IMG/VR virus record: IMGVR_UViG_3300033067_001661
Span: 64,001-128,000 of that record
Direction: 5' to 3' (one strand)
Length of the DNA: 64,000 nucleotides
Source of the DNA: a virus
Lineage: Duplodnaviria; Heunggongvirae; Uroviricota; Caudoviricetes
The position numbers were made by a program, and so were the translations under genes. The notes beneath the pieces were generated by a model that searched no databases, was not told the origin of the DNA, and saw only the letters and a list, made by a program, of their open reading frames with translations. This document shows positions 54,810 through 63,985 of this stretch, one piece after another (positions within the stretch are counted from its first letter, which is position 1; the number at the start of each line of letters is the position of its first letter).

Positions 54810-55568
54810 TTACTCCGAGAATATATCTTTTACTACATCTAGTCTTTGCTTTGCTAAAGCAATCGCTTTAGGGTTCTTATCGCTTCCAACAGGGAATCTT
54901 TTAGCCGCTAACGCTGCTTCTAAAAAACTACCGCTACCGCAAAATGGGTCCAAAACTCTATCCCCAGGATTGCTCCATATAGTAACTACTCTCTCCATGA
55001 GTTTAAGAGGCTTTTGAGTGGCATACCCGTTCTTTTCCGGTTCGTTCCTGCATATTGCAGGAATATCAACCCACCAATCCTCAAGAAGCTTACCTCTCTG
55101 TTCATAATGTTCCCAAGGAATTTTTTCTTTCGACCAAGCAGCAGCCCCTCCGACATTCATCTTGGTTTTATATGGAACCCTGGGTTGGTTAAATACATAC
55201 TCTCCGAGTCCATACCATAGGATCGTATGATGCTTCCTAGGGAGCCATCTCTTAGCGCTTGCAGGATTACTAAAGCCCCATATAATTTCGTTCCTGAAGC
55301 TATCCCTTCCAAAAATCTTATCCATTGAAACTTTGACATAATGTATCGCCTTGTAATCCATATGAACTACAATATTCGAATCTTTCTTCATGAGCTTTTT
55401 GATGGCGCTTAGCCTATCAGCCATATAAGAAACAAACTCGTCAAAAGACGAACCAACTCCATAGTATTCATCTTCAGATTCACAACTATAAGGCGGATCT
55501 AGATACACTAAATCAACAGGCTCCGTTACCAGCCCAAGACAGTCAGTATTATGAAGTTCATATTTCAT
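54810..55568 (-). CDS. site-specific DNA methyltransferase (N6A, beta class)
   Basis: YLDPPY, FRNEIIW, YATQKP, VLDPFCGSG. Confidence 0.92.
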   Translation of the reverse strand: MKYELHNTDCLGLVTEPVDLVYLDPPYSCESEDEYYGVGSSFDEFVSYMADRLSAIKKLMKKDSNIVVHMDYKAIHYVKVSMDKIFGRDSFRNEIIWGFSNPASAKRWLPRKHHTILWYGLGEYVFNQPRVPYKTKMNVGGAAAWSKEKIPWEHYEQRGKLLEDWWVDIPAICRNEPEKNGYATQKPLKLMERVVTIWSNPGDRVLDPFCGSGSFLEAALAAKRFPVGSDKNPKAIALAKQRLDVVKDIFSE

Positions 55569-56193
55569 TCTTCTTGGGGCCTCTAAGTCTGTCTATCTCT
55601 TCTTGTTTCTTTTCAGCCATGTAAATCTCATACCTTGATTTTGTTCTCGCAGGAAGAGCCTTTACAAGCTTCTCTAGATCGTCTACTCTTTCAACAAGAA
55701 TATAGGAATCCACAACCTTGTAGACCTTTTCCGCTATTTCTAGGTCTTGGGCATTGAAACCAACCTTTGACAGGAAGTTGTACATATGATTACTGACAAA
55801 TAGATCGGCAGCAATAATTGATTCTGTTTTATCAGTTTTACCTCCGCTTTCTGAGTATATAACAAGTTCTCTAACAATAGAGTCAACAATATCGTCTAGA
55901 CTTATATTTAATCCTGACGATAACTTTTCTATGCTTTCTCTAAGAGTTATCTGCTCATAAGCAGAAACCAACTGTATGATATTACCAGCGCTTTTACATC
56001 CAAAGCAGTAATAGTCCTGTCCATTTGGCTTGTCAAATACGAAGAACGAGGGCGTGTTATCATTGGCATGCGTAGGCAGAGGGCAGCGATACTTATACCT
56101 CTCAGCGTCATGACTTTGCCATTGTATACCCTTAAGAGCAAGATAATCAGTTATCTTGACTGATTTTGAAATTGTATCAAGTATCGCATTCAT
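55558..56193 (-). CDS. CHC2 primase-type zinc-finger protein (stand-alone DnaG Zn-binding domain)
   Basis: CPLPTHANDNTPSF..YYCFGCKSAGNIIQLV..TLRESIEKL; no Toprim domain. Confidence 0.85.
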   Translation of the reverse strand: MNAILDTISKSVKITDYLALKGIQWQSHDAERYKYRCPLPTHANDNTPSFFVFDKPNGQDYYCFGCKSAGNIIQLVSAYEQITLRESIEKLSSGLNISLDDIVDSIVRELVIYSESGGKTDKTESIIAADLFVSNHMYNFLSKVGFNAQDLEIAEKVYKVVDSYILVERVDDLEKLVKALPARTKSRYEIYMAEKKQEEIDRLRGPKKNEI

Positions 56194-56194
56194 A

Positions 56195-57787
56195 TTAACT
56201 AAAATCCAAATTTGCTACACTATTCAAAACACCCTTTGTTGCGCTCTTTGCGGGATTCTTTACTTCGCCCCTACTGAGCATGGGTTGAGGCGCTTCTGGC
56301 TCAAAGGAAAGGTCAAGGTCAGGATTCTTGATTACAGCATCTTCCGCTTTCTTAATCAAACCTGAAGCCTCTGGATCTCCAAAGTCAAACGTAGCCTCAA
56401 CAGTTGAATAGATCTTGCCAATATGGGGATTAACTTCAAGATCCGCCTTTGATTTGTCTTTGTATTGGCCGAACATCGTTGAACCGTAACGAGACTTTAC
56501 GCATACAAGATAAAGCTTCTCTTTTGGCCTATCAGGATGAGGAAACTGAACAAAAATATTATCAGCGTCTGCTGAGAAATCATGGGAGCCTCTAAGAGCG
56601 TCTGAGCCAACAGTTTGCTTACCGTCCTTTTGATTGCGAAGAGACTTGATAGCCTCTCGATTCAACTGTACAGCAGACAAAACAGAGAAACCCATCTTCC
56701 TACCAAGCTGCCTGAGGTCTTTGCACATCTGACCATACCAGCTATGCTCGGCAAGTCTCTGATACCAAGGCTCAGGGCTAAGAATGGAAATGTAGTCAAT
56801 TACAACAAGTCTTGGCCTAAAGAAATGCTTGCGCTTCTCAAGTTCCGCTCTAATCTTCGATACGGTCATTCTCTCTTGAGCGTCAAGAATAGCAAACTTA
56901 GAACTTATCTTCTTGAACTCTTCATTAGCCTTCTTGAGCCTTTCCTTTTCTGGCGGCGAAAGAAGACTAGGCTTGCCAATTTTCTCAGAATGAACATTGG
57001 CCTCTCTAGCCATAATTCTCTGCATCAATCTGGCTTTAGGCATTTCAAGCGAAACATAAAGAACATCTTCCTGAGAATCTCTACAGACATTTAACGCAAT
57101 ATTGATCATTGTTGCGGACTTAAATCCGCCAACGTCAGCAACAATAAGAGTAAGCGCGCCGATATCCAAGCCCATCGGCATTGTCTCGTCAAAAGGCTTT
57201 ATTCCAGTTTGCAGAACCTTCTTTGGATTCGTTATCTCGTTCTCTAATTCCGCATACCAATCGTCTCCGTATTCAGCAACGGTATCCCAAGAGGCAGTCT
57301 TGCCATCAATTGAGTTCGAGGTTAGTATGGTAAGCTCTTCTGTAAGAGAAGAAAGCGAACCCATCCAATCTTGACCTTTGTTGTCGCTAAACTTCTCTAT
57401 AAGCTTGACAGACTTTTGACGAATGAAGCTTTCTCTAACTCTCCTGCACATAAGAGGAAAGTCAGCCGAATCAGTCTTCTCAAAATTCTTTATGCCAGTA
57501 TATATGTCCTTTTCATTACCAACTGCAATTTTTTGACTCGAAACCTCGCTGCCAGTCCACTTATTGTAATCACCGTTTGCAACAGATTTCGATATAAAAT
57601 CGCTGTAATACTCTTCAGTAAACGCTTGAGAGTCTTGATAAGATTGTTCTATGCCTCTAACAAAGGGTCTGTATTTCGTGTCAAAGTATTCAGTACCAAT
57701 TTGTTCAGATAGAAAATCAGGTATAAACTCTTGTTTATTAACCACTATGTTGAGTAATTTTTGCTGAGCTTCTGCGTCTATAATCAT
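56195..57787 (-). CDS. dnaB: DnaB-family replicative helicase
   Basis: TGIKPFD, ADVGGFKS, YVSLEM, VVIDYI, AVQLNR, LRGS..ADAD, KSRYG; start ATG 57787 overlaps the upstream stop. Confidence 0.9.
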   Translation of the reverse strand: MIIDAEAQQKLLNIVVNKQEFIPDFLSEQIGTEYFDTKYRPFVRGIEQSYQDSQAFTEEYYSDFISKSVANGDYNKWTGSEVSSQKIAVGNEKDIYTGIKNFEKTDSADFPLMCRRVRESFIRQKSVKLIEKFSDNKGQDWMGSLSSLTEELTILTSNSIDGKTASWDTVAEYGDDWYAELENEITNPKKVLQTGIKPFDETMPMGLDIGALTLIVADVGGFKSATMINIALNVCRDSQEDVLYVSLEMPKARLMQRIMAREANVHSEKIGKPSLLSPPEKERLKKANEEFKKISSKFAILDAQERMTVSKIRAELEKRKHFFRPRLVVIDYISILSPEPWYQRLAEHSWYGQMCKDLRQLGRKMGFSVLSAVQLNREAIKSLRNQKDGKQTVGSDALRGSHDFSADADNIFVQFPHPDRPKEKLYLVCVKSRYGSTMFGQYKDKSKADLEVNPHIGKIYSTVEATFDFGDPEASGLIKKAEDAVIKNPDLDLSFEPEAPQPMLSRGEVKNPAKSATKGVLNSVANLDFS

Positions 57788-58644
57788 CCTTGTCCCCCAA
57801 CCTTTATCAGCCATGTATTATTCGCAGAAATGATTTTCTGAAATGCATAACCCATGAACTTGCTATAGTCCTGGGACTCAACATCAAAATCGCAAATCAG
57901 AATGGTTGGTAACTTATTCTCAAGTCTTGTTATCAAGAAACTTTCGAATAAAGCAACAAAGGACTGATAGTTGAAATCAAGCTCATTCGCAGGCAAAGTT
58001 ATATCGTCGATAACAAGCCAATCGCATTCTTTCAAATCATTGGCTTTATCTGTCTTTTGCTTTAGATCTTGCTTGAGGGTATGAAACGATACCATCGAAT
58101 ATGTATCTGCTCGATTAGAAGCGTAAAGCCTTCTCCATATAGCTTCTTTTATGATAAGGCTTGCAATGAGCGTCTTACCAGCAGGTAAGGAACGAGAAGA
58201 AGCCCCAAGCTTCAAACGAATAGCGTCTCCGTGAATAACGACATTATCGCCGTCATTAAAACGGGTATCCATCTTAGAAGCTTTATTCATAGCCTCTCTG
58301 GTTGAGAGCCTAGCTATTTCTTCACCGTCAAACAGATACTTACGAAGATCGTTTTGTATCCTAACTCGGTCCTCGTTACTCCAAACGGATTGAAGGTTCT
58401 TGTTTTTATCAACAACCATTCCGGTTAGATTTTGGATGCTTAATTCTCTGTATTGCTCGGGTATCGTATACTCAATATTGCCTTTGATTTCTGCGAGTTT
58501 TCTACAAAGACAACCGTTAGGTCTACTACACTGGTCCGCTCCGATATAGTTCTTGCAAAAAGAAGGATTACCATTTGAATCTTCCCCTGCGGTTTGATAC
58601 AAATAGAACCTGTACTTGCGTATGATTGCAGTTAAATCAGACAT
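57784..58644 (-). CDS. DnaC/IstB-like ATPase (putative helicase loader)
   Basis: N-terminal Cys cluster (C..C..CLC), IPEQY, AGKTLIA, WLVIDDI, RLENKLPTI; directly upstream of dnaB. Confidence 0.65.
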   Translation of the reverse strand: MSDLTAIIRKYRFYLYQTAGEDSNGNPSFCKNYIGADQCSRPNGCLCRKLAEIKGNIEYTIPEQYRELSIQNLTGMVVDKNKNLQSVWSNEDRVRIQNDLRKYLFDGEEIARLSTREAMNKASKMDTRFNDGDNVVIHGDAIRLKLGASSRSLPAGKTLIASLIIKEAIWRRLYASNRADTYSMVSFHTLKQDLKQKTDKANDLKECDWLVIDDITLPANELDFNYQSFVALFESFLITRLENKLPTILICDFDVESQDYSKFMGYAFQKIISANNTWLIKVGGQG

Positions 58645-58658: not shown

Positions 58659-58690
58659 AAAAGCAACCTAGCGATTGCAGGAAATCACAA

Positions 58691-60019
58691 TCAGCAGGCG
58701 CAGAGAATGTTGTTCAAAAATATACCGCAACTATCGTCGCACGTTATTGTAAACGTTTTTTCTATTGAAGTATCTTCTACGCCACAAACTTTGATTCCAA
58801 CAACAGAAGATTCAACAAGTTTTGATAGAGAAGAGCGCTTGCTCTTTTTCTTGATATACTTGTTCAAATCCGCAGCCATATCATGATTCATAACAACATT
58901 ATCTTGTTCAAAGAGGGCAAGCTTTTCATACTTCTCAGCAGCCATGCCAACGTCTGTCTTGATACTTGAAAGGGACTTGCCAAACTTATAACCTAGCAAA
59001 TCAACGGCAGGAATAGGCTTATCTACAAGCTCTGTCATGTAATCATCAACCTTAATGACAAGAGACTTAATCAAGTAAGGTATAGAGCTAAAGAATGTTT
59101 CAATATGACCGCTATCAATAATTATGTAAGAAGAACGAGACATGAAAGGTACTATGCCAAATATAAGCAAGCACTTGCAAAGCCTGTCAGAAGATATTTC
59201 GCCGCCTCGATGAAGAGAAACGCATGGCTTAAGTTTTGCCTTATCAACAAAGCCAAAGGCATTACTTGCATGAAAGTATCCCGCAAGATAGTTTAGTACA
59301 ATTTCTTCATTCTGAGAAGCGACTTCTTTCAAGAAAGAGTCAATCAATGTAGCAACAACTTTGTTTTGAACCCTAACCAAATCTCCATTAATCTCTGGTT
59401 CAACAAGAAAGCATGAAGATATAGCATGAGCAAATATACTATTCACAACCTTGTCGTTAGCGCTGAAAAGAATGTCGCCAGTTTCAAGATTATAAGTTCC
59501 TTTGCAATCAATAAGGCCAGCAGCAAAAGCCAATCCCATCAAGAAACTAATAGACATAGAAGCGTCTGCTTGATGGATCTTGCCTCCAACTCTTTGCTTT
59601 ATAAGCGAACCCTTCTTATTGGGAAAGACATTTTCGATCTGAAAGTTGTTCTCTCGAAAAGAAAGAGACTTTGGCATCAAAAGCAAATCACCACCAACAA
59701 GCTCGCCAACAGAAGCCTTATTCAATTCTCCATTTTCATTAATGTAGACCATGCAATCATGCTGCAATTCTAGAAAAGAACCGCAACTCTGTATTCTCGC
59801 CAGCTTAGAAGGCGATGCTTCGACGCATGACTGAATTCGAACAACCTTTGATTGCCAGGTATCCTGGTCAAAACCCATTACCTGCAAACTTCCTTTTTTA
59901 AGGACATTTGGCAACTCGGAAACTCGATAGCTGTTTCCATAAAGATCATGCAGGAAAGAATTCCCGCCAACACCTTTGATACTAGAACTTATCTTGACTT
60001 GACCTTTCGACATGAACAT
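58691..60019 (-). CDS. free-standing degenerate intein-like protein (Hint and LAGLIDADG folds)
   Basis: Hint-N pattern (VGGNSFL..RVSEL..VMGFD..VGELVGGDLLLMP), LAGLIDADG-like FLMGLAFAAG and YLAGYFHA, Hint-C pattern KVCGVE..EKTFTITC..IFLNNILCAC-stop. Confidence 0.7.
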   Translation of the reverse strand: MFMSKGQVKISSSIKGVGGNSFLHDLYGNSYRVSELPNVLKKGSLQVMGFDQDTWQSKVVRIQSCVEASPSKLARIQSCGSFLELQHDCMVYINENGELNKASVGELVGGDLLLMPKSLSFRENNFQIENVFPNKKGSLIKQRVGGKIHQADASMSISFLMGLAFAAGLIDCKGTYNLETGDILFSANDKVVNSIFAHAISSCFLVEPEINGDLVRVQNKVVATLIDSFLKEVASQNEEIVLNYLAGYFHASNAFGFVDKAKLKPCVSLHRGGEISSDRLCKCLLIFGIVPFMSRSSYIIIDSGHIETFFSSIPYLIKSLVIKVDDYMTELVDKPIPAVDLLGYKFGKSLSSIKTDVGMAAEKYEKLALFEQDNVVMNHDMAADLNKYIKKKSKRSSLSKLVESSVVGIKVCGVEDTSIEKTFTITCDDSCGIFLNNILCAC

Positions 60020-60518
60020 GCTCTCTTAGTGGTTTGAGTATTACGAAAACGATGTTGTCTGTAACCCTTAATTCGTCCCATTTTGCAACATCTCCGAGGT
60101 CGGACACCGCCTTGTTGAGAAGTTCTTTCGCATTCGAAACGAACGCTCTTTCTCTTCCCTTTAGTTCGATTCCAAACTTAACAAGGCACTTCTTTTCAAG
60201 CATGCCTCTAATCTTCGTCTTTTTCACCTGAATGTCGTGTTCTCCTGTCTTCAAGTGAAACATCATTTCTTTTGTTTCGGTAGGTTTGCTACTGTTTTTC
60301 TTTTTTGAAGCTTCAAACTTAAGCTTGCCAGCGTCTGCAAACTTACAAATAGGAACACCCTTGTCATTCTTCGAAACCTGAACAAGGTCAAAACCTCGTT
60401 CCCTCGCTTGGGAGATTGCAAGTTTCCTGTTAGTCTCTCCCTTGCTGACCCCATTCTCGTCAATTACGATTACGGAGTAACCATAAATCTCTTCATTCGC
60501 CAAAATCCTGCCAGTCAC
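59982..60518 (-). CDS. infC: translation initiation factor IF-3
   Basis: NEEI..V.VIDENG, GFDLVQVS, PICK..DAGK, KEMMF..GEHDIQVK, KGRE; GTG start after AAGGAG. Confidence 0.88.
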   Translation of the reverse strand: MTGRILANEEIYGYSVIVIDENGVSKGETNRKLAISQARERGFDLVQVSKNDKGVPICKFADAGKLKFEASKKKNSSKPTETKEMMFHLKTGEHDIQVKKTKIRGMLEKKCLVKFGIELKGRERAFVSNAKELLNKAVSDLGDVAKWDELRVTDNIVFVILKPLREHVHVERSSQDKF

Positions 60519-60528
60519 AATAAGCTCC

Positions 60529-61422
60529 TTAATTCCTCGAAACAAAAGATATCTCGTTTATCGCTAAACTCTTGAGTAACGCATCTAATTGCGGGTCATA
60601 ATGTTTCTCTGTATACGGAGACATCTTCTTTGTTATTTCTTTGATTCTCTCAATAAACGCCGGTCCTGATTTCGTTGCGTCCTGATAAAAGCTCTGTATC
60701 ACTTCTCTGCTCTCTTTAGGAGACAAGCCCCTATTCGAAAGCAACCATGAAAAACAAACAACAATCCCATAGTTCATAAGAAATGCGACACCGCCAGAGT
60801 TGTAATACTCTTCAATCTTCGATAGATCAATTCTGTTTCCAAGCGCAACGCCTTGAACTTCCTTATGCTTATTGAGACTTACAAACTTCTGAGAAGCCCT
60901 ACGGGAACAGAAGTCATACAAATCAAAAGCCTCAACATTTAGCTCCTCTTCAATAAACCATTCTATGTAGGTCTTTACTATTGAATTTGATGGCGGAGCG
61001 GATAGCCTTCTTTCAAGTTCCTCTTTGATTCGCTTTGTAAAACGAGCATGAATCGCAGGACCAATTGTAACGGCAATTTTATCTCCGAGGCGCTTGTCTT
61101 TCTTTATACAGAGATAGCGAAGATAATTGAACATCGCTTTATCAGTCCAAAGATCTGGATGAATAGTATTAAAGCCCTTTGAGGTCTTTATATCTTTCCA
61201 TTTACAAACGCCAGTCTTCTGGCCGCTAGCCTTCTTAGTAGTTGGTCCGTCTACAATTTCAAGCTCGTCTTCTCCAATGATATCGAGAAGGCTATTCTTC
61301 TTCTTAGCTTTAGGACTAATCCCCTTACTGGTGTCCTTTTGACTTTGCGCAAGAATATCACCCATAAAGTCTTTTGTTTCTGTCTGCATTTTCTTACCTC
61401 TTTTGGGCATCGCTTTGACCAA
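60529..61422 (-). CDS. hypothetical protein
   Basis: long ORF overlapping neighbours; start uncertain. Confidence 0.55.
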   Translation of the reverse strand: MVKAMPKRGKKMQTETKDFMGDILAQSQKDTSKGISPKAKKKNSLLDIIGEDELEIVDGPTTKKASGQKTGVCKWKDIKTSKGFNTIHPDLWTDKAMFNYLRYLCIKKDKRLGDKIAVTIGPAIHARFTKRIKEELERRLSAPPSNSIVKTYIEWFIEEELNVEAFDLYDFCSRRASQKFVSLNKHKEVQGVALGNRIDLSKIEEYYNSGGVAFLMNYGIVVCFSWLLSNRGLSPKESREVIQSFYQDATKSGPAFIERIKEITKKMSPYTEKHYDPQLDALLKSLAINEISFVSRN

Positions 61423-62518: not shown

Positions 62519-63985
62519 TTAGGTTGTACCCTTGAAATCTTTGATTACGAATTCTGGTTCAGTTTCGTAGATTCTTCGACGCGCTCTACTATGAGCAAGC
62601 ATGTACTTCATATTATCGTGAAAATCGACAATGTAAGCATCCTTTTTCACGAAGCCAGAAGTAGGATCTTCAAAAGTTCTGATTACACGCCCAATTCTTT
62701 GCAAAGCTCTGGTTTGAGATTTTCCAGAACCCGCAAGAATAAGACCATCAAGAGGTTTAACATCAACGCCTTCGTCAAAGATTGATGTTGCGATAGTAAC
62801 AGGAACCTTCTTCAATCTCATATCATCAATATGAGTTTGACGAACCTTATGACCCTTGCTACCATGAACAAAGAAACTATCAGGAATCATTGACTCCAAA
62901 AGCTCGCCATGCTCAATATGACGAACGAGAATCAAAACGTGTCTACCTTCTTTAACCATATTCTGCGCAATGTTCCCGATTAACAGGTTGCGCTCTTCAT
63001 TCTGAACAATACCTTCTTTATAGGCTGTTGCATAGTTGATATCTTCGTCCATAGACTTTCGAGTATGAACAAAGTAAATAGTTGGCTTAACTAAGATTCC
63101 CTTACGAATAAGAAACGACGCATTGATCTCATGAATAAGCTTGCCAAAGCAAGAATCAATGAGCAAGTCATCGCCCATGTCTCGCCAAGGTGTCGCCGAG
63201 AGTCCAAAACGGAATCTAGCATTAACAGAATGGTCAGCTAAGATCTGGCAAGTTTCAGCAGCCCAGTGCTGAACTTCGTCGCAAATGATTCCCTTCGCAT
63301 TATGAATGAGAGACGCTATTGCTTCTCTCTTCTGCTGAAGCTCTTCCGAAATATCTTCTACCTCGTCTTCCTCGTCAAACTTATGGTACTTTTCCCCAAC
63401 CGCTCTAATAGCCGTTTGAACAGTAAGAACATTTACGTCCTTGATATCAAACTTACCACCGCCAATACTACCAACCTTGAGGGGACTTCCATTTTGGAGC
63501 AAGAACTTTTCTAGTTCGTCTTTTGCCTGCCTAAGCAAATCATTGGAAGTTACATAGAAGATAAAAGGAGCAGCGCTTAGCTTCTGGATAATACCAGCAC
63601 CAATAGCTGTCTTTCCGCCTCCAGTAGCAACTTTAATAATGCCTCGTTGTTGATTGACGGCTTTATCAATAACCTCCTGCTGATAATCTCTAACTTGAAA
63701 AGAAGGGCTAGGGGTTAAAACGATATTGTTTGTCTTCGCTTCTGTTCGCTCGTCAACAGTTGTAACATCAACGCCATAAGCCCTAAAAAACTCAAGCGCT
63801 CTACTATACAAGCCTGTTGGAAAATGAACGCCGTCTTTCTTGAGAGAACACTTACAGTATGTCTTATTGAAGCATACGGTTGTAACATATCCGTCCCAGT
63901 TTTTAGCGTTCTTGCCTCGCCAAATTGCATTTGGATCTTTATAGCCAAGAGTTTTCTTGAACTCCTGATAAAGCTCTTTGGTCAT
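62519..63985 (-). CDS. SF2 DEAD/DEAH-box helicase (UvsW/ResIII-like)
   Basis: RDYQQE, ATGGGKT, DEVQH, GLSATP, FDEGVD, QRIGR. Confidence 0.9.
   Translation of the reverse strand: MTKELYQEFKKTLGYKDPNAIWRGKNAKNWDGYVTTVCFNKTYCKCSLKKDGVHFPTGLYSRALEFFRAYGVDVTTVDERTEAKTNNIVLTPSPSFQVRDYQQEVIDKAVNQQRGIIKVATGGGKTAIGAGIIQKLSAAPFIFYVTSNDLLRQAKDELEKFLLQNGSPLKVGSIGGGKFDIKDVNVLTVQTAIRAVGEKYHKFDEEDEVEDISEELQQKREAIASLIHNAKGIICDEVQHWAAETCQILADHSVNARFRFGLSATPWRDMGDDLLIDSCFGKLIHEINASFLIRKGILVKPTIYFVHTRKSMDEDINYATAYKEGIVQNEERNLLIGNIAQNMVKEGRHVLILVRHIEHGELLESMIPDSFFVHGSKGHKVRQTHIDDMRLKKVPVTIATSIFDEGVDVKPLDGLILAGSGKSQTRALQRIGRVIRTFEDPTSGFVKKDAYIVDFHDNMKYMLAHSRARRRIYETEPEFVIKDFKGTT

What the first reader, a model, noticed from the sequence alone, without database searches (positions are those of the whole stretch)
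58691..60019. Stand-alone intein-shaped protein with no exteins and apparently no catalytic residues: possible domesticated intein
Seen: an uninterrupted 442 aa ORF with Hint-N, two LAGLIDADG-like helices and Hint-C. Cys1 is replaced (G-VGGNS), block B TxxH reads QHDC, block F VYD reads TFT, and the terminal HN reads AC followed by a stop with no C-extein. The endonuclease acidic residues are also lost (LMGLAFAAG, LAGYFHASN). It overlaps infC and precedes the loader-dnaB genes. Known: yeast HO and bacterial WhiA are domesticated intein/LAGLIDADG derivatives. Inference: losing both activities while keeping the full frame suggests a new function, such as a DNA-binding regulator, an origin-binding factor or a decoy against homing elements.
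Basis: partly seen in the sequence, partly recalled or inferred. Interest (0 to 1): 0.75.

Follow-up and report, generated by a model that had tools for sequence, protein, structure and literature searches.

The report
Dead intein kept without host protein
A giant phage keeps, as a gene of its own, an intein (a self-splicing protein insert) whose surrounding ATPase gene has been deleted; it can no longer splice and very probably cannot cut DNA, yet selection keeps it intact, so it probably has a new job.

Summary
A 440/442-aa ORF on the minus strand (58691-60013/60019) folds as a complete nuclease-containing intein (pLDDT 91; Z 29 to the TliVMA intein). Every splicing residue is replaced, as are both LAGLIDADG catalytic acids.

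Its origin is now clear. In sister giant phages the same slot (IF3 - X - loader-like ATPase - DnaB - primase) holds a roughly 1000-aa AAA ATPase (PHROG 8638). That gene carries a canonical intein 37% identical to this ORF, just before Walker B. Here both exteins are gone. The ATPase start codon context and about nine relic N-extein residues remain, and the stop sits at the +1 Cys codon.

Stand-alone forms arose at least twice (AU test p 3e-64; neighbour-gene trees agree). They are under purifying selection (dN/dS 0.09-0.14 in all four domains). The extra constraint on the Hint domain seen in one embedded pair is absent from stand-alone pairs.

The function is not known. My best guess is a non-catalytic nucleic-acid-binding factor that uses the basic HTH-like accessory domain, as WhiA does.

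The scan reached the same reading on another genome (e1-5466526). I found no paper describing it.

The parts
58691..60013 (-). Stand-alone intein-derived gene. It is 440 aa from Met3, or 442 aa from the upstream ATG at 60019. The stop TGA is at 58691-58693.
   Evidence: ORF list. Orthologues of 47-87% identity all begin MSKGQ/MSQSQ. The AF2 model has pLDDT 91.4.
59975..60013 (-). Residues 3-15. These are the start codon and first codons of the former AAA ATPase gene (MSKG against MPKE), joined to a relic of the last N-extein residues (QVKISSSIK against HAIKLSETIAP).
   Evidence: Protein alignment. DNA comparison of the start regions of the window and L010: ATG TCG AAA GG against ATG CCG AAA GA, both overlapping the end of the IF3 gene.
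59564..59974 (-). Hint N-terminal part, residues 16-152. Gly16 stands at position 1, and block B reads Q86-H87-D88-C89 in place of TxxH.
   Evidence: Family profile against the Ssp DnaB intein 1mi8, E 8.6e-15. VIA Z about 18 to mini-inteins.
59015..59563 (-). Degenerate LAGLIDADG double domain, residues 153-335. Helix 1 is A166-G174 (59498-59524), with Lys173 at the catalytic position. Helix 2 is L245-N253 (59261-59287), with Ser252 at the catalytic position.
   Evidence: Alignment. VIA Z 15-17 to I-DmoI and WhiA over residues 156-337. Net charge -5, pI 5.3.
58808..59014 (-). Helical accessory domain between the nuclease domain and Hint-C, residues 336-404. It is HTH-like and basic (pI 9.2), with the invariant motif GYKFGKS.
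   Evidence: Four helices in the model. Sub-threshold HTH_3 hits, E 0.06, in two relatives. The profile's best PDB hit is the XRE-type C.BclI, E 0.06. The accessory domain of the best structural match, TliVMA, is described as HTH-like (PMC8966425). dN/dS is 0.046 against L001.
58694..58807 (-). Hint C-terminal part, residues 405-442. Block F reads TFT...SCGIF, and the terminal residues are A441-C442 in place of His-Asn.
   Evidence: Alignment to P0009 and others. Profile hits of positions 401-439 to C-terminal intein halves.
59982..60545 (-). Upstream neighbour: phage IF3 homologue. Its last 32 nt overlap the start of the intein-derived gene.
   Evidence: Pfam IF3_N E 4e-15 and IF3_C E 7.6e-14. 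The gene is absent from the orthologous loci L002 and L014.
57784..58644 (-). Downstream neighbour: DnaC-like loader ATPase of 286 aa, with an invariant four-Cys cluster and Walker A and B motifs.
   Evidence: PHROG 50, E 8e-6. Invariant C30, C39, C45, C47, G156-K157-T158 and D213-D214 in 12 orthologues.
56195..57814 (-). DnaB-like replicative helicase.
   Evidence: Pfam DnaB_C E 1.5e-27 and PHROG 19 E 3.9e-48.

Best explanation
SHOWN
1. The gene is what remains of a class-1, LAGLIDADG-containing intein. That intein sat just before the Walker B motif of a phage AAA ATPase (PHROG 8638) encoded between IF3 and the helicase loader.
2. In this lineage an in-frame internal deletion removed nearly the whole N-extein but kept the ATPase gene's own start.
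3. The C-extein was lost behind a stop at the +1 Cys codon.
4. The same outcome arose at least twice in two deep phage lineages.
5. The product cannot splice, because it has no exteins, no Cys1, no TxxH and no terminal His-Asn. It lacks both LAGLIDADG catalytic acids.
6. It is nevertheless a full-length protein, confidently predicted to fold and under purifying selection in all four domains.

INFERRED
1. The intein had a use of its own, and that use outlived the ATPase. Supporting this, the nuclease and accessory domains are kept without a full catalytic pair in every embedded relative seen.
2. The most likely mechanism, at about 40%, is non-catalytic nucleic-acid binding through the basic HTH-like accessory domain, with the dead Hint-LAGLIDADG body as scaffold. 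That would make it a WhiA-like regulator or replication accessory factor of the phage.

The 0.5 given below is for the whole statement. Separately, I put origin by extein loss at about 0.95, a functional protein at about 0.85, and the nucleic-acid-binding mechanism at about 0.4.
For: Homology: an exhaustive search finds canonical inteins inside AAA ATPases at E 1.8e-86 (P0009, 37% identity over residues 6-440) and others. Pfam finds Intein_splicing plus AAA plus AAA_lid_3 in them. Their exteins match PHROG 8638 at profile positions up to 365 and from 366 on.

Synteny: three embedded forms were found by look-up (L010, L014, and the P0019 place, for which only gene calls were held). A fourth, L016, was found later. 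All four sit in exactly the slot of the stand-alone gene.

Relics: N-extein-like residues and a homologous start codon context.

No PHROG 8638 orthologue occurs in the 333-kb record; only two weak AAA paralogues do.

Independent losses: the ML tree needs 3 changes, and starred branches force at least 2. The AU test rejects a single stand-alone clade (delta lnL 154, p 3e-64). Loader and DnaB trees show the same two lineages, each with both states.

Selection: dN/dS is 0.096, 0.138 and 0.086, with CIs within 0.06-0.19. All domains fall at 0.05-0.17 in close pairs.

Shift of constraint: dN(Hint)/dN(LAGLIDADG+ACD) is 0.37 (CI 0.22-0.55) in the embedded pair L010/L016. It is 0.85-1.38 in nine stand-alone pairs.

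Fold.

Accessory domain: it is full length in all stand-alone forms and basic in all but P0008, but shortened in four embedded ones.
Against: No function was measured.

The LAGLIDADG domain is net acidic (charge -5, pI 5.3). The one relative that keeps a catalytic Asp in helix 2 (P0024) has charge +22. DNA binding by the saddle is therefore doubtful.

The HTH assignment rests on sub-threshold hits (E about 0.06) and on a resemblance reported for another intein.

The record is only about 66% complete by CheckV, so an ATPase copy elsewhere in the genome is not excluded.

The constraint-shift comparison has a single embedded pair with saturated dS (1.7-2.0).

I ran the AU test after I had seen the tree.

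GC skew shows no origin near the gene.
Confidence: 0.5

Rival explanations
1. The relic works through protein-protein contacts, for example as an adaptor or regulator in the replication or another phage machine, and does not bind nucleic acid. The rigid Hint-LAGLIDADG body is simply a stable scaffold.
For: All four domains, including the now useless Hint domain, are about equally constrained. The LAGLIDADG domain is acidic. The gene has a constant position in the replication operon.
Against: Its position is inherited from the ATPase gene, so it says little about partners. The most basic domain, the accessory domain, resembles a DNA-binding module and was the most conserved domain in the WIN-L001 and WIN-L013 pairs only.
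Confidence: 0.2
2. It is still a nuclease or nickase with a non-canonical active site. It would act as a free-standing homing or competition endonuclease against related phages that carry the uninterrupted ATPase gene.
For: The complete nuclease and accessory-domain fold is kept. Phage free-standing homing endonucleases used in competition are well known (general knowledge). HO and WHO are extein-less intein derivatives that do cut DNA (PMC7282813).
Against: Both metal-binding acids are replaced by Lys173 and Ser252, and the same positions lack a full acidic pair in all 24 relatives. The PhoVMA intein, which lacks these aspartates, was shown to be inactive (PMC8966425). The gene always sits at the same locus, so there is no sign of mobility.
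Confidence: 0.08
3. It is a decoy or immunity factor. The dead nuclease would still bind the old homing site, or a related site, and block cutting or re-invasion by active inteins of co-infecting phages.
For: The group is rich in inteins: in the ResIII helicase of L004, L005 and L010, and a second intein in the Walker A of the AAA gene in P0010.
Against: This genome has no ATPase gene left to protect. No relative with a complete active site was found.
Confidence: 0.07
4. It is a neutral leftover that simply has not decayed yet, or that is kept open only to allow translation to reach the downstream loader and DnaB genes.
For: It evolves faster than its neighbours (85% against 96-99% amino-acid identity to L001). 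No Pfam, PHROG or NCBIfam model recognises it.
Against: dN/dS is about 0.1 with dS 0.8-1.2. Length is conserved without frameshifts down to 40% identity within its clade, and the form is retained after at least two independent extein losses. Translational coupling would not constrain amino acids.
Confidence: 0.07
5. It is an artefact of assembly or gene calling, or half of a split arrangement whose exteins lie elsewhere and are joined in trans.
For: The record is about 66% complete.
Against: The same extein-less architecture appears in independent assemblies from NCBI, JGI, ENA, Logan and IMG/VR. The Hint domain is whole, not split. All splice residues are gone. Only 46 nt separate it from the next gene.
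Confidence: 0.02

Closest known systems
Embedded intein of the giant-phage AAA ATPase (PHROG 8638), e.g. P0009 in L010 and the copy in L016
   Same: It is homologous over the whole length (37% identity, E 1.8e-86). It has the same four-domain build (Hint-N, LAGLIDADG, accessory domain, Hint-C), the same genomic slot, and the same lack of a full LAGLIDADG catalytic pair.
   Different: The embedded form has exteins, Cys1, TxxH, YDL, NHNF, His-Asn and a +1 Cys, so it should splice. The window protein has none of these. In the single embedded pair tested the Hint domain evolves about three times slower than the central domains; in stand-alone pairs it does not.
Yeast HO endonuclease and WHO elements (extein-less intein derivatives; PMC7282813)
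   Same: Both are intein-derived proteins encoded as genes of their own, without exteins and without protein splicing.
   Different: HO and WHO are active LAGLIDADG nucleases fused to a zinc finger, they lack motif G, and they arose by duplication and mis-homing. Here the nuclease residues are lost, there is no zinc finger, the motif G segment is kept with changed residues, and the origin is deletion of the host gene in place.
WhiA (bacterial transcription factor: degenerate LAGLIDADG domain plus HTH; PDB 3hyi, 8dy9)
   Same: A LAGLIDADG double domain without catalytic acids is followed by a helical, probably HTH, module. Structural match is Z 16.8-17.1 over residues 156-337.
   Different: WhiA has no Hint domain and is not intein-derived as far as is known. 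The ORF has no sequence match to the Pfam WhiA models. Any resemblance in function is an inference.
Inteins with degenerate nuclease domains, e.g. the PhoVMA intein (PDB 7qst; PMC8966425)
   Same: The active-site aspartates are lost while the nuclease fold stays intact. Structural match is Z 26.
   Different: PhoVMA is still embedded and still splices. It fits the usual homing cycle of decay, whereas here the host gene decayed and the intein stayed.

Membership tests
Intein (class 1, nuclease-containing) | Hint fold formed by N- and C-terminal segments | tested here: met
   VIA Z about 18, rmsd 1.5-1.9 A over about 137 residues to mini-inteins. Family profile against 1mi8, E 8.6e-15.
Intein (class 1, nuclease-containing) | Sequence homology to bona fide splicing inteins | tested here: met
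   E 1.8e-86 to the intein of P0009, which itself matches Pfam Intein_splicing at E 6.4e-24.
Intein (class 1, nuclease-containing) | Inserted in frame within a host protein (N- and C-exteins) | tested here: not met
   Only 13-15 residues precede position 1, and the stop falls at the +1 position. IF3 lies upstream and the loader begins 46 nt downstream.
Intein (class 1, nuclease-containing) | Nucleophile (Cys/Ser) at position 1 and block B TxxH | tested here: not met
   Gly16, and Q86-H87-D88-C89.
Intein (class 1, nuclease-containing) | Terminal Asn (with penultimate His) and a +1 Cys/Ser/Thr | tested here: not met
   A441-C442, then stop.
LAGLIDADG homing endonuclease | Two LAGLIDADG helices packed in a pseudo-dimeric alpha-beta fold | tested here: met
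   VIA Z 15-16 to I-DmoI over residues 156-326. Motifs AAGLIDCKG and LAGYFHASN.
LAGLIDADG homing endonuclease | Acidic residue (Asp/Glu) at the C-terminal end of each LAGLIDADG helix for metal binding | tested here: not met
   Lys173 and Ser252. Lys173 is invariant among the six closest orthologues of alignment A1; position 252 is Ser in five of them and Asn in P0007.
LAGLIDADG homing endonuclease | Site-specific DNA cleavage | not testable with these tools
   Needs a biochemical assay.
HO / WHO family | Extein-less intein-like region fused to a C-terminal zinc-finger domain, with active nuclease residues | tested here: not met
   The protein ends at the last intein residue and the catalytic acids are absent. 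The HO/WHO features are taken from PMC7282813.
WhiA | Match to the WhiA family models and a degenerate LAGLIDADG plus C-terminal HTH build without a Hint domain | tested here: not met
   No Pfam hit even at E 10, and a Hint domain is present. Only the LAGLIDADG fold matches.
XRE-type helix-turn-helix domain (for residues 336-404) | Significant match to HTH models or structures | tested here: inconclusive
   HTH_3 at E 0.06-0.07 in two relatives, none in the window protein. C.BclI at E 0.06 with the family profile.

The most novel reading that the evidence does not exclude
The intein had already become a useful phage protein while still embedded: its nuclease was dead, but its nuclease and HTH-like domains were kept through deep divergence. 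In several lineages this job outlived the ATPase that hosted it. That would make this a repeated conversion of a selfish protein insert into a WhiA-like regulator or replication factor, caught with ancestral and derived states side by side in sister phages.
Probability: 0.3. Interest if true: 0.8.

Novelty: new variant of a known kind. Interest (0 to 1): 0.7.

Why it matters
Inteins are usually seen as pure parasites. The standard homing cycle predicts loss of the nuclease, shrinkage to a mini-intein, then loss of the intein, with the host gene always surviving.

Here the order is reversed. The host gene is deleted and the intein survives under selection, and this happened at least twice. That is strong circumstantial evidence that an intein can carry a function of its own.

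The sister phages provide a natural before-and-after series: embedded and able to splice, then stand-alone with some splice residues left (P0018), then stand-alone with none. This makes the question of what inteins do for their hosts testable.

It also adds a prokaryotic-virus counterpart to the yeast HO story. A stable, splicing-dead Hint-LAGLIDADG scaffold may also interest protein engineers.

Tried and rejected
- Pfam (also at E 10), PHROGs and NCBIfam give no hit for the ORF itself.
- phmmer against PDB gives only E 0.25 to PI-PkoII.
- tblastn against cultured phages finds nothing.
- The first AF2 run, with 7 close sequences, was poor (pLDDT 52) and was not used.
- A predicted complex of the ORF with the loader-like neighbour gave no verdict. 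It is neither evidence for nor against binding.
Absence of the ATPase could therefore be checked only in the window's own, incomplete, record.
- The search for related loci failed with the deep alignment and found only one more stand-alone locus with A1.
- Origin-binding idea: cumulative GC skew falls steadily across all 333 kb, with no switch near the gene.
- Idea of a new Cys4 metal site in the old splicing pocket (C89, C431, C440, C442): rejected, because only C431 is invariant among close orthologues.
- Phrase searches for 'extein-less', 'orphan intein', 'stand-alone intein' and similar returned no paper. Broader searches returned HO/WHO and general intein literature only.
Full report
**1. 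What is there**

The finding's coordinates hold an uninterrupted ORF on the minus strand, 58691-60019. It is 442 aa from the first ATG. All orthologues begin at the third residue (Met, 60013), so the likely product is 440 aa. I keep the 442-residue numbering throughout.

The gene starts 32 nt inside the 3' end of a phage IF3 homologue (59982-60545; Pfam IF3_N and IF3_C). After a 46-nt spacer come these genes:
- a DnaC-like loader ATPase (57784-58644; PHROG 50 at E 8e-6, with Walker A and B and a four-Cys cluster invariant in 12 orthologues);
- a DnaB-like helicase (56195-57814);
- a primase zinc-finger protein (55558-56193).

The window is bases 64001-128000 of a 333,623-bp IMG/VR virus record. 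CheckV estimates it to be about 66% complete. Relatives lie on contigs of up to 498 kb, so this is a very large phage.

**2. Fold and residues**

No Pfam, PHROG or NCBIfam model recognises the protein. An AF2 run with seven close orthologues was poor.

An exhaustive HMMER search of 1.84 billion representatives found 19 relatives. A 24-sequence alignment of them (A2) gave a confident model, with pLDDT 91.4 and pTM 0.90.

The model matches whole nuclease-containing inteins:

| Target | Z | rmsd / aligned residues | Model region |
|---|---|---|---|
| TliVMA intein 7qss | 29.0 | 3.4 A / 375 | 15-442 |
| PI-PkoII | 28.5 | 3.8 A / 367 | 16-442 |
| PI-PfuI | 22.9 | 5.2 A / 372 | 16-442 |
| PI-SceI | about 18 | 4.7-5.3 A / 294-309 | about 14-442 |
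| Mini-inteins | about 18 | 1.5-1.9 A / about 137 | outer segments |
| I-DmoI, WhiA | 15-17 | 2.3-2.9 A / 152-174 | 156-337 |

The best ESM Atlas match is a cluster of roughly 1000-aa 'AAA ATPase/intein' proteins, mostly viral (TM 0.83 by the query).

- Gly16 stands for Cys1.
- Q86-H87-D88-C89 stands for TxxH.
- T422-F423-T424 stands for (A)YD.
- SCGIF stands for NHNF.
- A441-C442 stands for His-Asn, with the stop codon at the +1 position.

The first helix is really A166-AGLIDCK-G174, with Lys173 at the catalytic position.

**3. Where it came from**

The relatives fall into two kinds.

The embedded kind comprises eight full-length proteins of 851-1015 aa (P0009, P0015, P0017, P0019, P0022-P0025), plus P0010, an 805-aa call that begins inside a second intein. 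Each carries the homologous segment inside an AAA ATPase (Pfam AAA plus AAA_lid_3). The exteins match PHROG 8638, a phage ATPase of unknown function, on either side of profile position 365/366. Eight of the nine have every splicing hallmark; P0024 has Lys for the penultimate His. The junctions read ...ETIAP|CVSG... and ...LCHN|CILWADEIEKG, so the insert sits just before Walker B.

The stand-alone kind comprises proteins of 435-478 aa (the window, P0002-P0008, P0011, P0013, P0016, P0018). They lack exteins and have degraded hallmarks.

Both kinds occupy the same genomic slot: ResIII helicase, Dam-like methylase, a roughly 290-aa unknown, IF3 (sometimes absent), X, loader-like ATPase, DnaB, primase zinc finger.

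The window ORF still uses what looks like the ATPase gene's own start. It reads ATG TCG AAA GG, against ATG CCG AAA GA in L010, and both starts overlap the IF3 stop by about 30 nt. Residues 7-15 (QVKISSSIK) resemble the last N-extein residues (HAIKLSETIAP).

The simplest history has two steps. An in-frame deletion removed about 350 N-extein codons. The C-extein was then lost behind a stop at the +1 Cys codon; TGY to TGA is a single base change.

The 333-kb record holds no PHROG 8638 orthologue. It holds only two weak AAA paralogues, at about 286.5 and 314.5 kb. Because the record is incomplete, absence from the whole genome is not proven.

**4. It happened more than once**

An ML tree of the intein segment puts the stand-alone forms in three places, and well-supported branches force at least two.
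- The window's clade of nine groups with the embedded P0009/P0010 in a 100/100 clade.
- P0013 and P0018, and P0016 on a long branch, lie in the other half of the tree with the embedded P0015.

An AU test rejects a single stand-alone clade (delta lnL 154, p 3e-64). I ran that test after seeing the tree.

Trees of the neighbouring loader and DnaB genes show the same two deep lineages, each containing both states. The intein has therefore been inherited with the phage backbone. Regaining exteins together with all canonical residues is implausible, so these events are independent extein losses.

P0018 looks like an intermediate. It keeps Cys1, TxxH and a Cys at +1, but reads Arg-Asp for His-Asn.

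**5. It is kept by selection**

Against the orthologues in L001 and L013, dN/dS is 0.096, 0.138 and 0.086. Bootstrap CIs lie within 0.06-0.19 and dS is 0.8-1.2, with the IF3 overlap left out. The neighbouring genes give 0.01-0.09.

There are no frameshifts or internal stops in any orthologue, and length stays at 435-458 aa down to 35-40% identity within the clade.

All four domains are constrained (0.05-0.17 in close pairs).

One embedded pair could be compared (L010 against L016, 74% identity in the intein). Its intein also has dN/dS of about 0.09. There the Hint parts change about three times more slowly than the nuclease and accessory domains: dN ratio 0.37, CI 0.22-0.55. In nine stand-alone pairs the ratio is 0.85-1.38. 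This is what one expects if the splicing constraint has gone while another constraint holds the whole protein. It rests on a single embedded pair with saturated dS.

**6. How it may work**

Splicing is impossible. DNA cleavage is very unlikely, because both metal-binding acids are missing. The PhoVMA intein, which lacks the same aspartates, was inactive until they were grafted back (PMC8966425).

None of the 24 relatives, embedded or not, has both acids; P0017 keeps one in helix 1 and P0024 one in helix 2. Yet the nuclease fold is retained in all of them. The nuclease domain therefore seems to have been kept for something other than homing even before the exteins were lost.

Between the nuclease domain and Hint-C lies a four-helix accessory domain (residues 336-404).
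- It is full length in every stand-alone form, but shortened in four embedded ones.
- It is basic (pI about 9; P0008 is the exception at 6.4).
- It had the lowest dN/dS in the WIN-L001 and WIN-L013 pairs (0.046 and 0.110).
- It gives sub-threshold matches to XRE-type HTH proteins (HTH_3 at E 0.06 in two relatives; C.BclI at E 0.06).
- The accessory domains of TliVMA and PI-TkoII are described as HTH-like.

By contrast, the LAGLIDADG domain is net acidic (charge -5), which argues against saddle-type DNA binding.

I therefore favour, at about 40%, a non-catalytic nucleic-acid-binding role. The HTH-like domain would be the reading head and the dead Hint-LAGLIDADG body the scaffold. This is the same solution as WhiA, reached from an intein.

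A purely protein-binding role is the main rival, at about 20%. A residual nuclease, a decoy, a neutral leftover and an artefact are each below 10%.

There is no sign of a replication origin nearby. A predicted complex with the loader-like neighbour gave no verdict.

**7. Comparison and novelty**

It is homologous to inteins and has their fold. It fails the defining tests of an intein: no exteins, no nucleophile, no TxxH, no terminal Asn. It also fails the defining test of a LAGLIDADG nuclease: no catalytic acids.

The nearest known cases of intein domestication are yeast HO and the WHO elements. They also lack exteins, but they are active nucleases fused to zinc fingers and arose by mis-homing (PMC7282813). 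WhiA is the nearest functional analogy.

I found no paper describing an intein that lost its host gene and both activities yet is conserved. The searched library does not cover all journals.

The scan had reached the same reading on another genome (e1-5466526; also e1-5635916). I saw those notes only after the homology, synteny, tree and dN/dS results.

I rate it a new variant of a known kind (a domesticated homing-element protein), with interest 0.7.

Noticed in passing
window 59982-60545 (-): The phage encodes an IF3 homologue whose 3' end overlaps the next gene. The gene is present in most sister loci but absent from L002 and L014, so it is a variable insert in the replication operon.
   Followed up: partly
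L004:2598-5516, L005:4584-6539, L010:504-3461; window 62519-63985 (-): The ResIII/SNF2-type helicase two to three genes upstream carries true inteins in sister phages (972, 651 and 985 aa, with Pfam Intein_splicing). The window's copy is intein-free (488 aa).
   Followed up: no
P0010 residues 1-127: The embedded ATPase of one relative has a second intein, ending ...SHN|CGKS inside the Walker A loop. This ATPase gene can therefore carry two inteins.
   Followed up: no
window 57784-58644 (-): The loader-like protein combines an N-terminal invariant four-Cys cluster (C30, C39, C45, C47), probably a zinc site, with DnaC-like Walker A and B motifs. No Pfam or NCBIfam model matches it.
   Followed up: partly
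genome G000:C1 286517-287968 (-) and 314462-316087 (-), outside the window: There are two other AAA-type ORFs (484 and 542 aa). They match only the ATPase core of PHROG 8638 (38-44 bits) and are not orthologues of the lost gene.
   Followed up: partly
window 58663-58678 (-): A small GC-rich hairpin followed by TTTT lies in the 46-nt spacer between the intein-derived gene and the loader gene. The spacer sequence is nearly the same in L001 and L013.
   Followed up: no
whole record G000:C1 1-333623: GC skew is negative almost throughout, and the cumulative skew falls steadily with no turning point in 333 kb. GC content is 40.6%.
   Followed up: no
P0024 (embedded relative): One embedded intein is strongly basic (net +38 overall, +22 in the nuclease domain) and keeps one catalytic Asp. 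It may be the member closest to an active, DNA-binding state.
   Followed up: no
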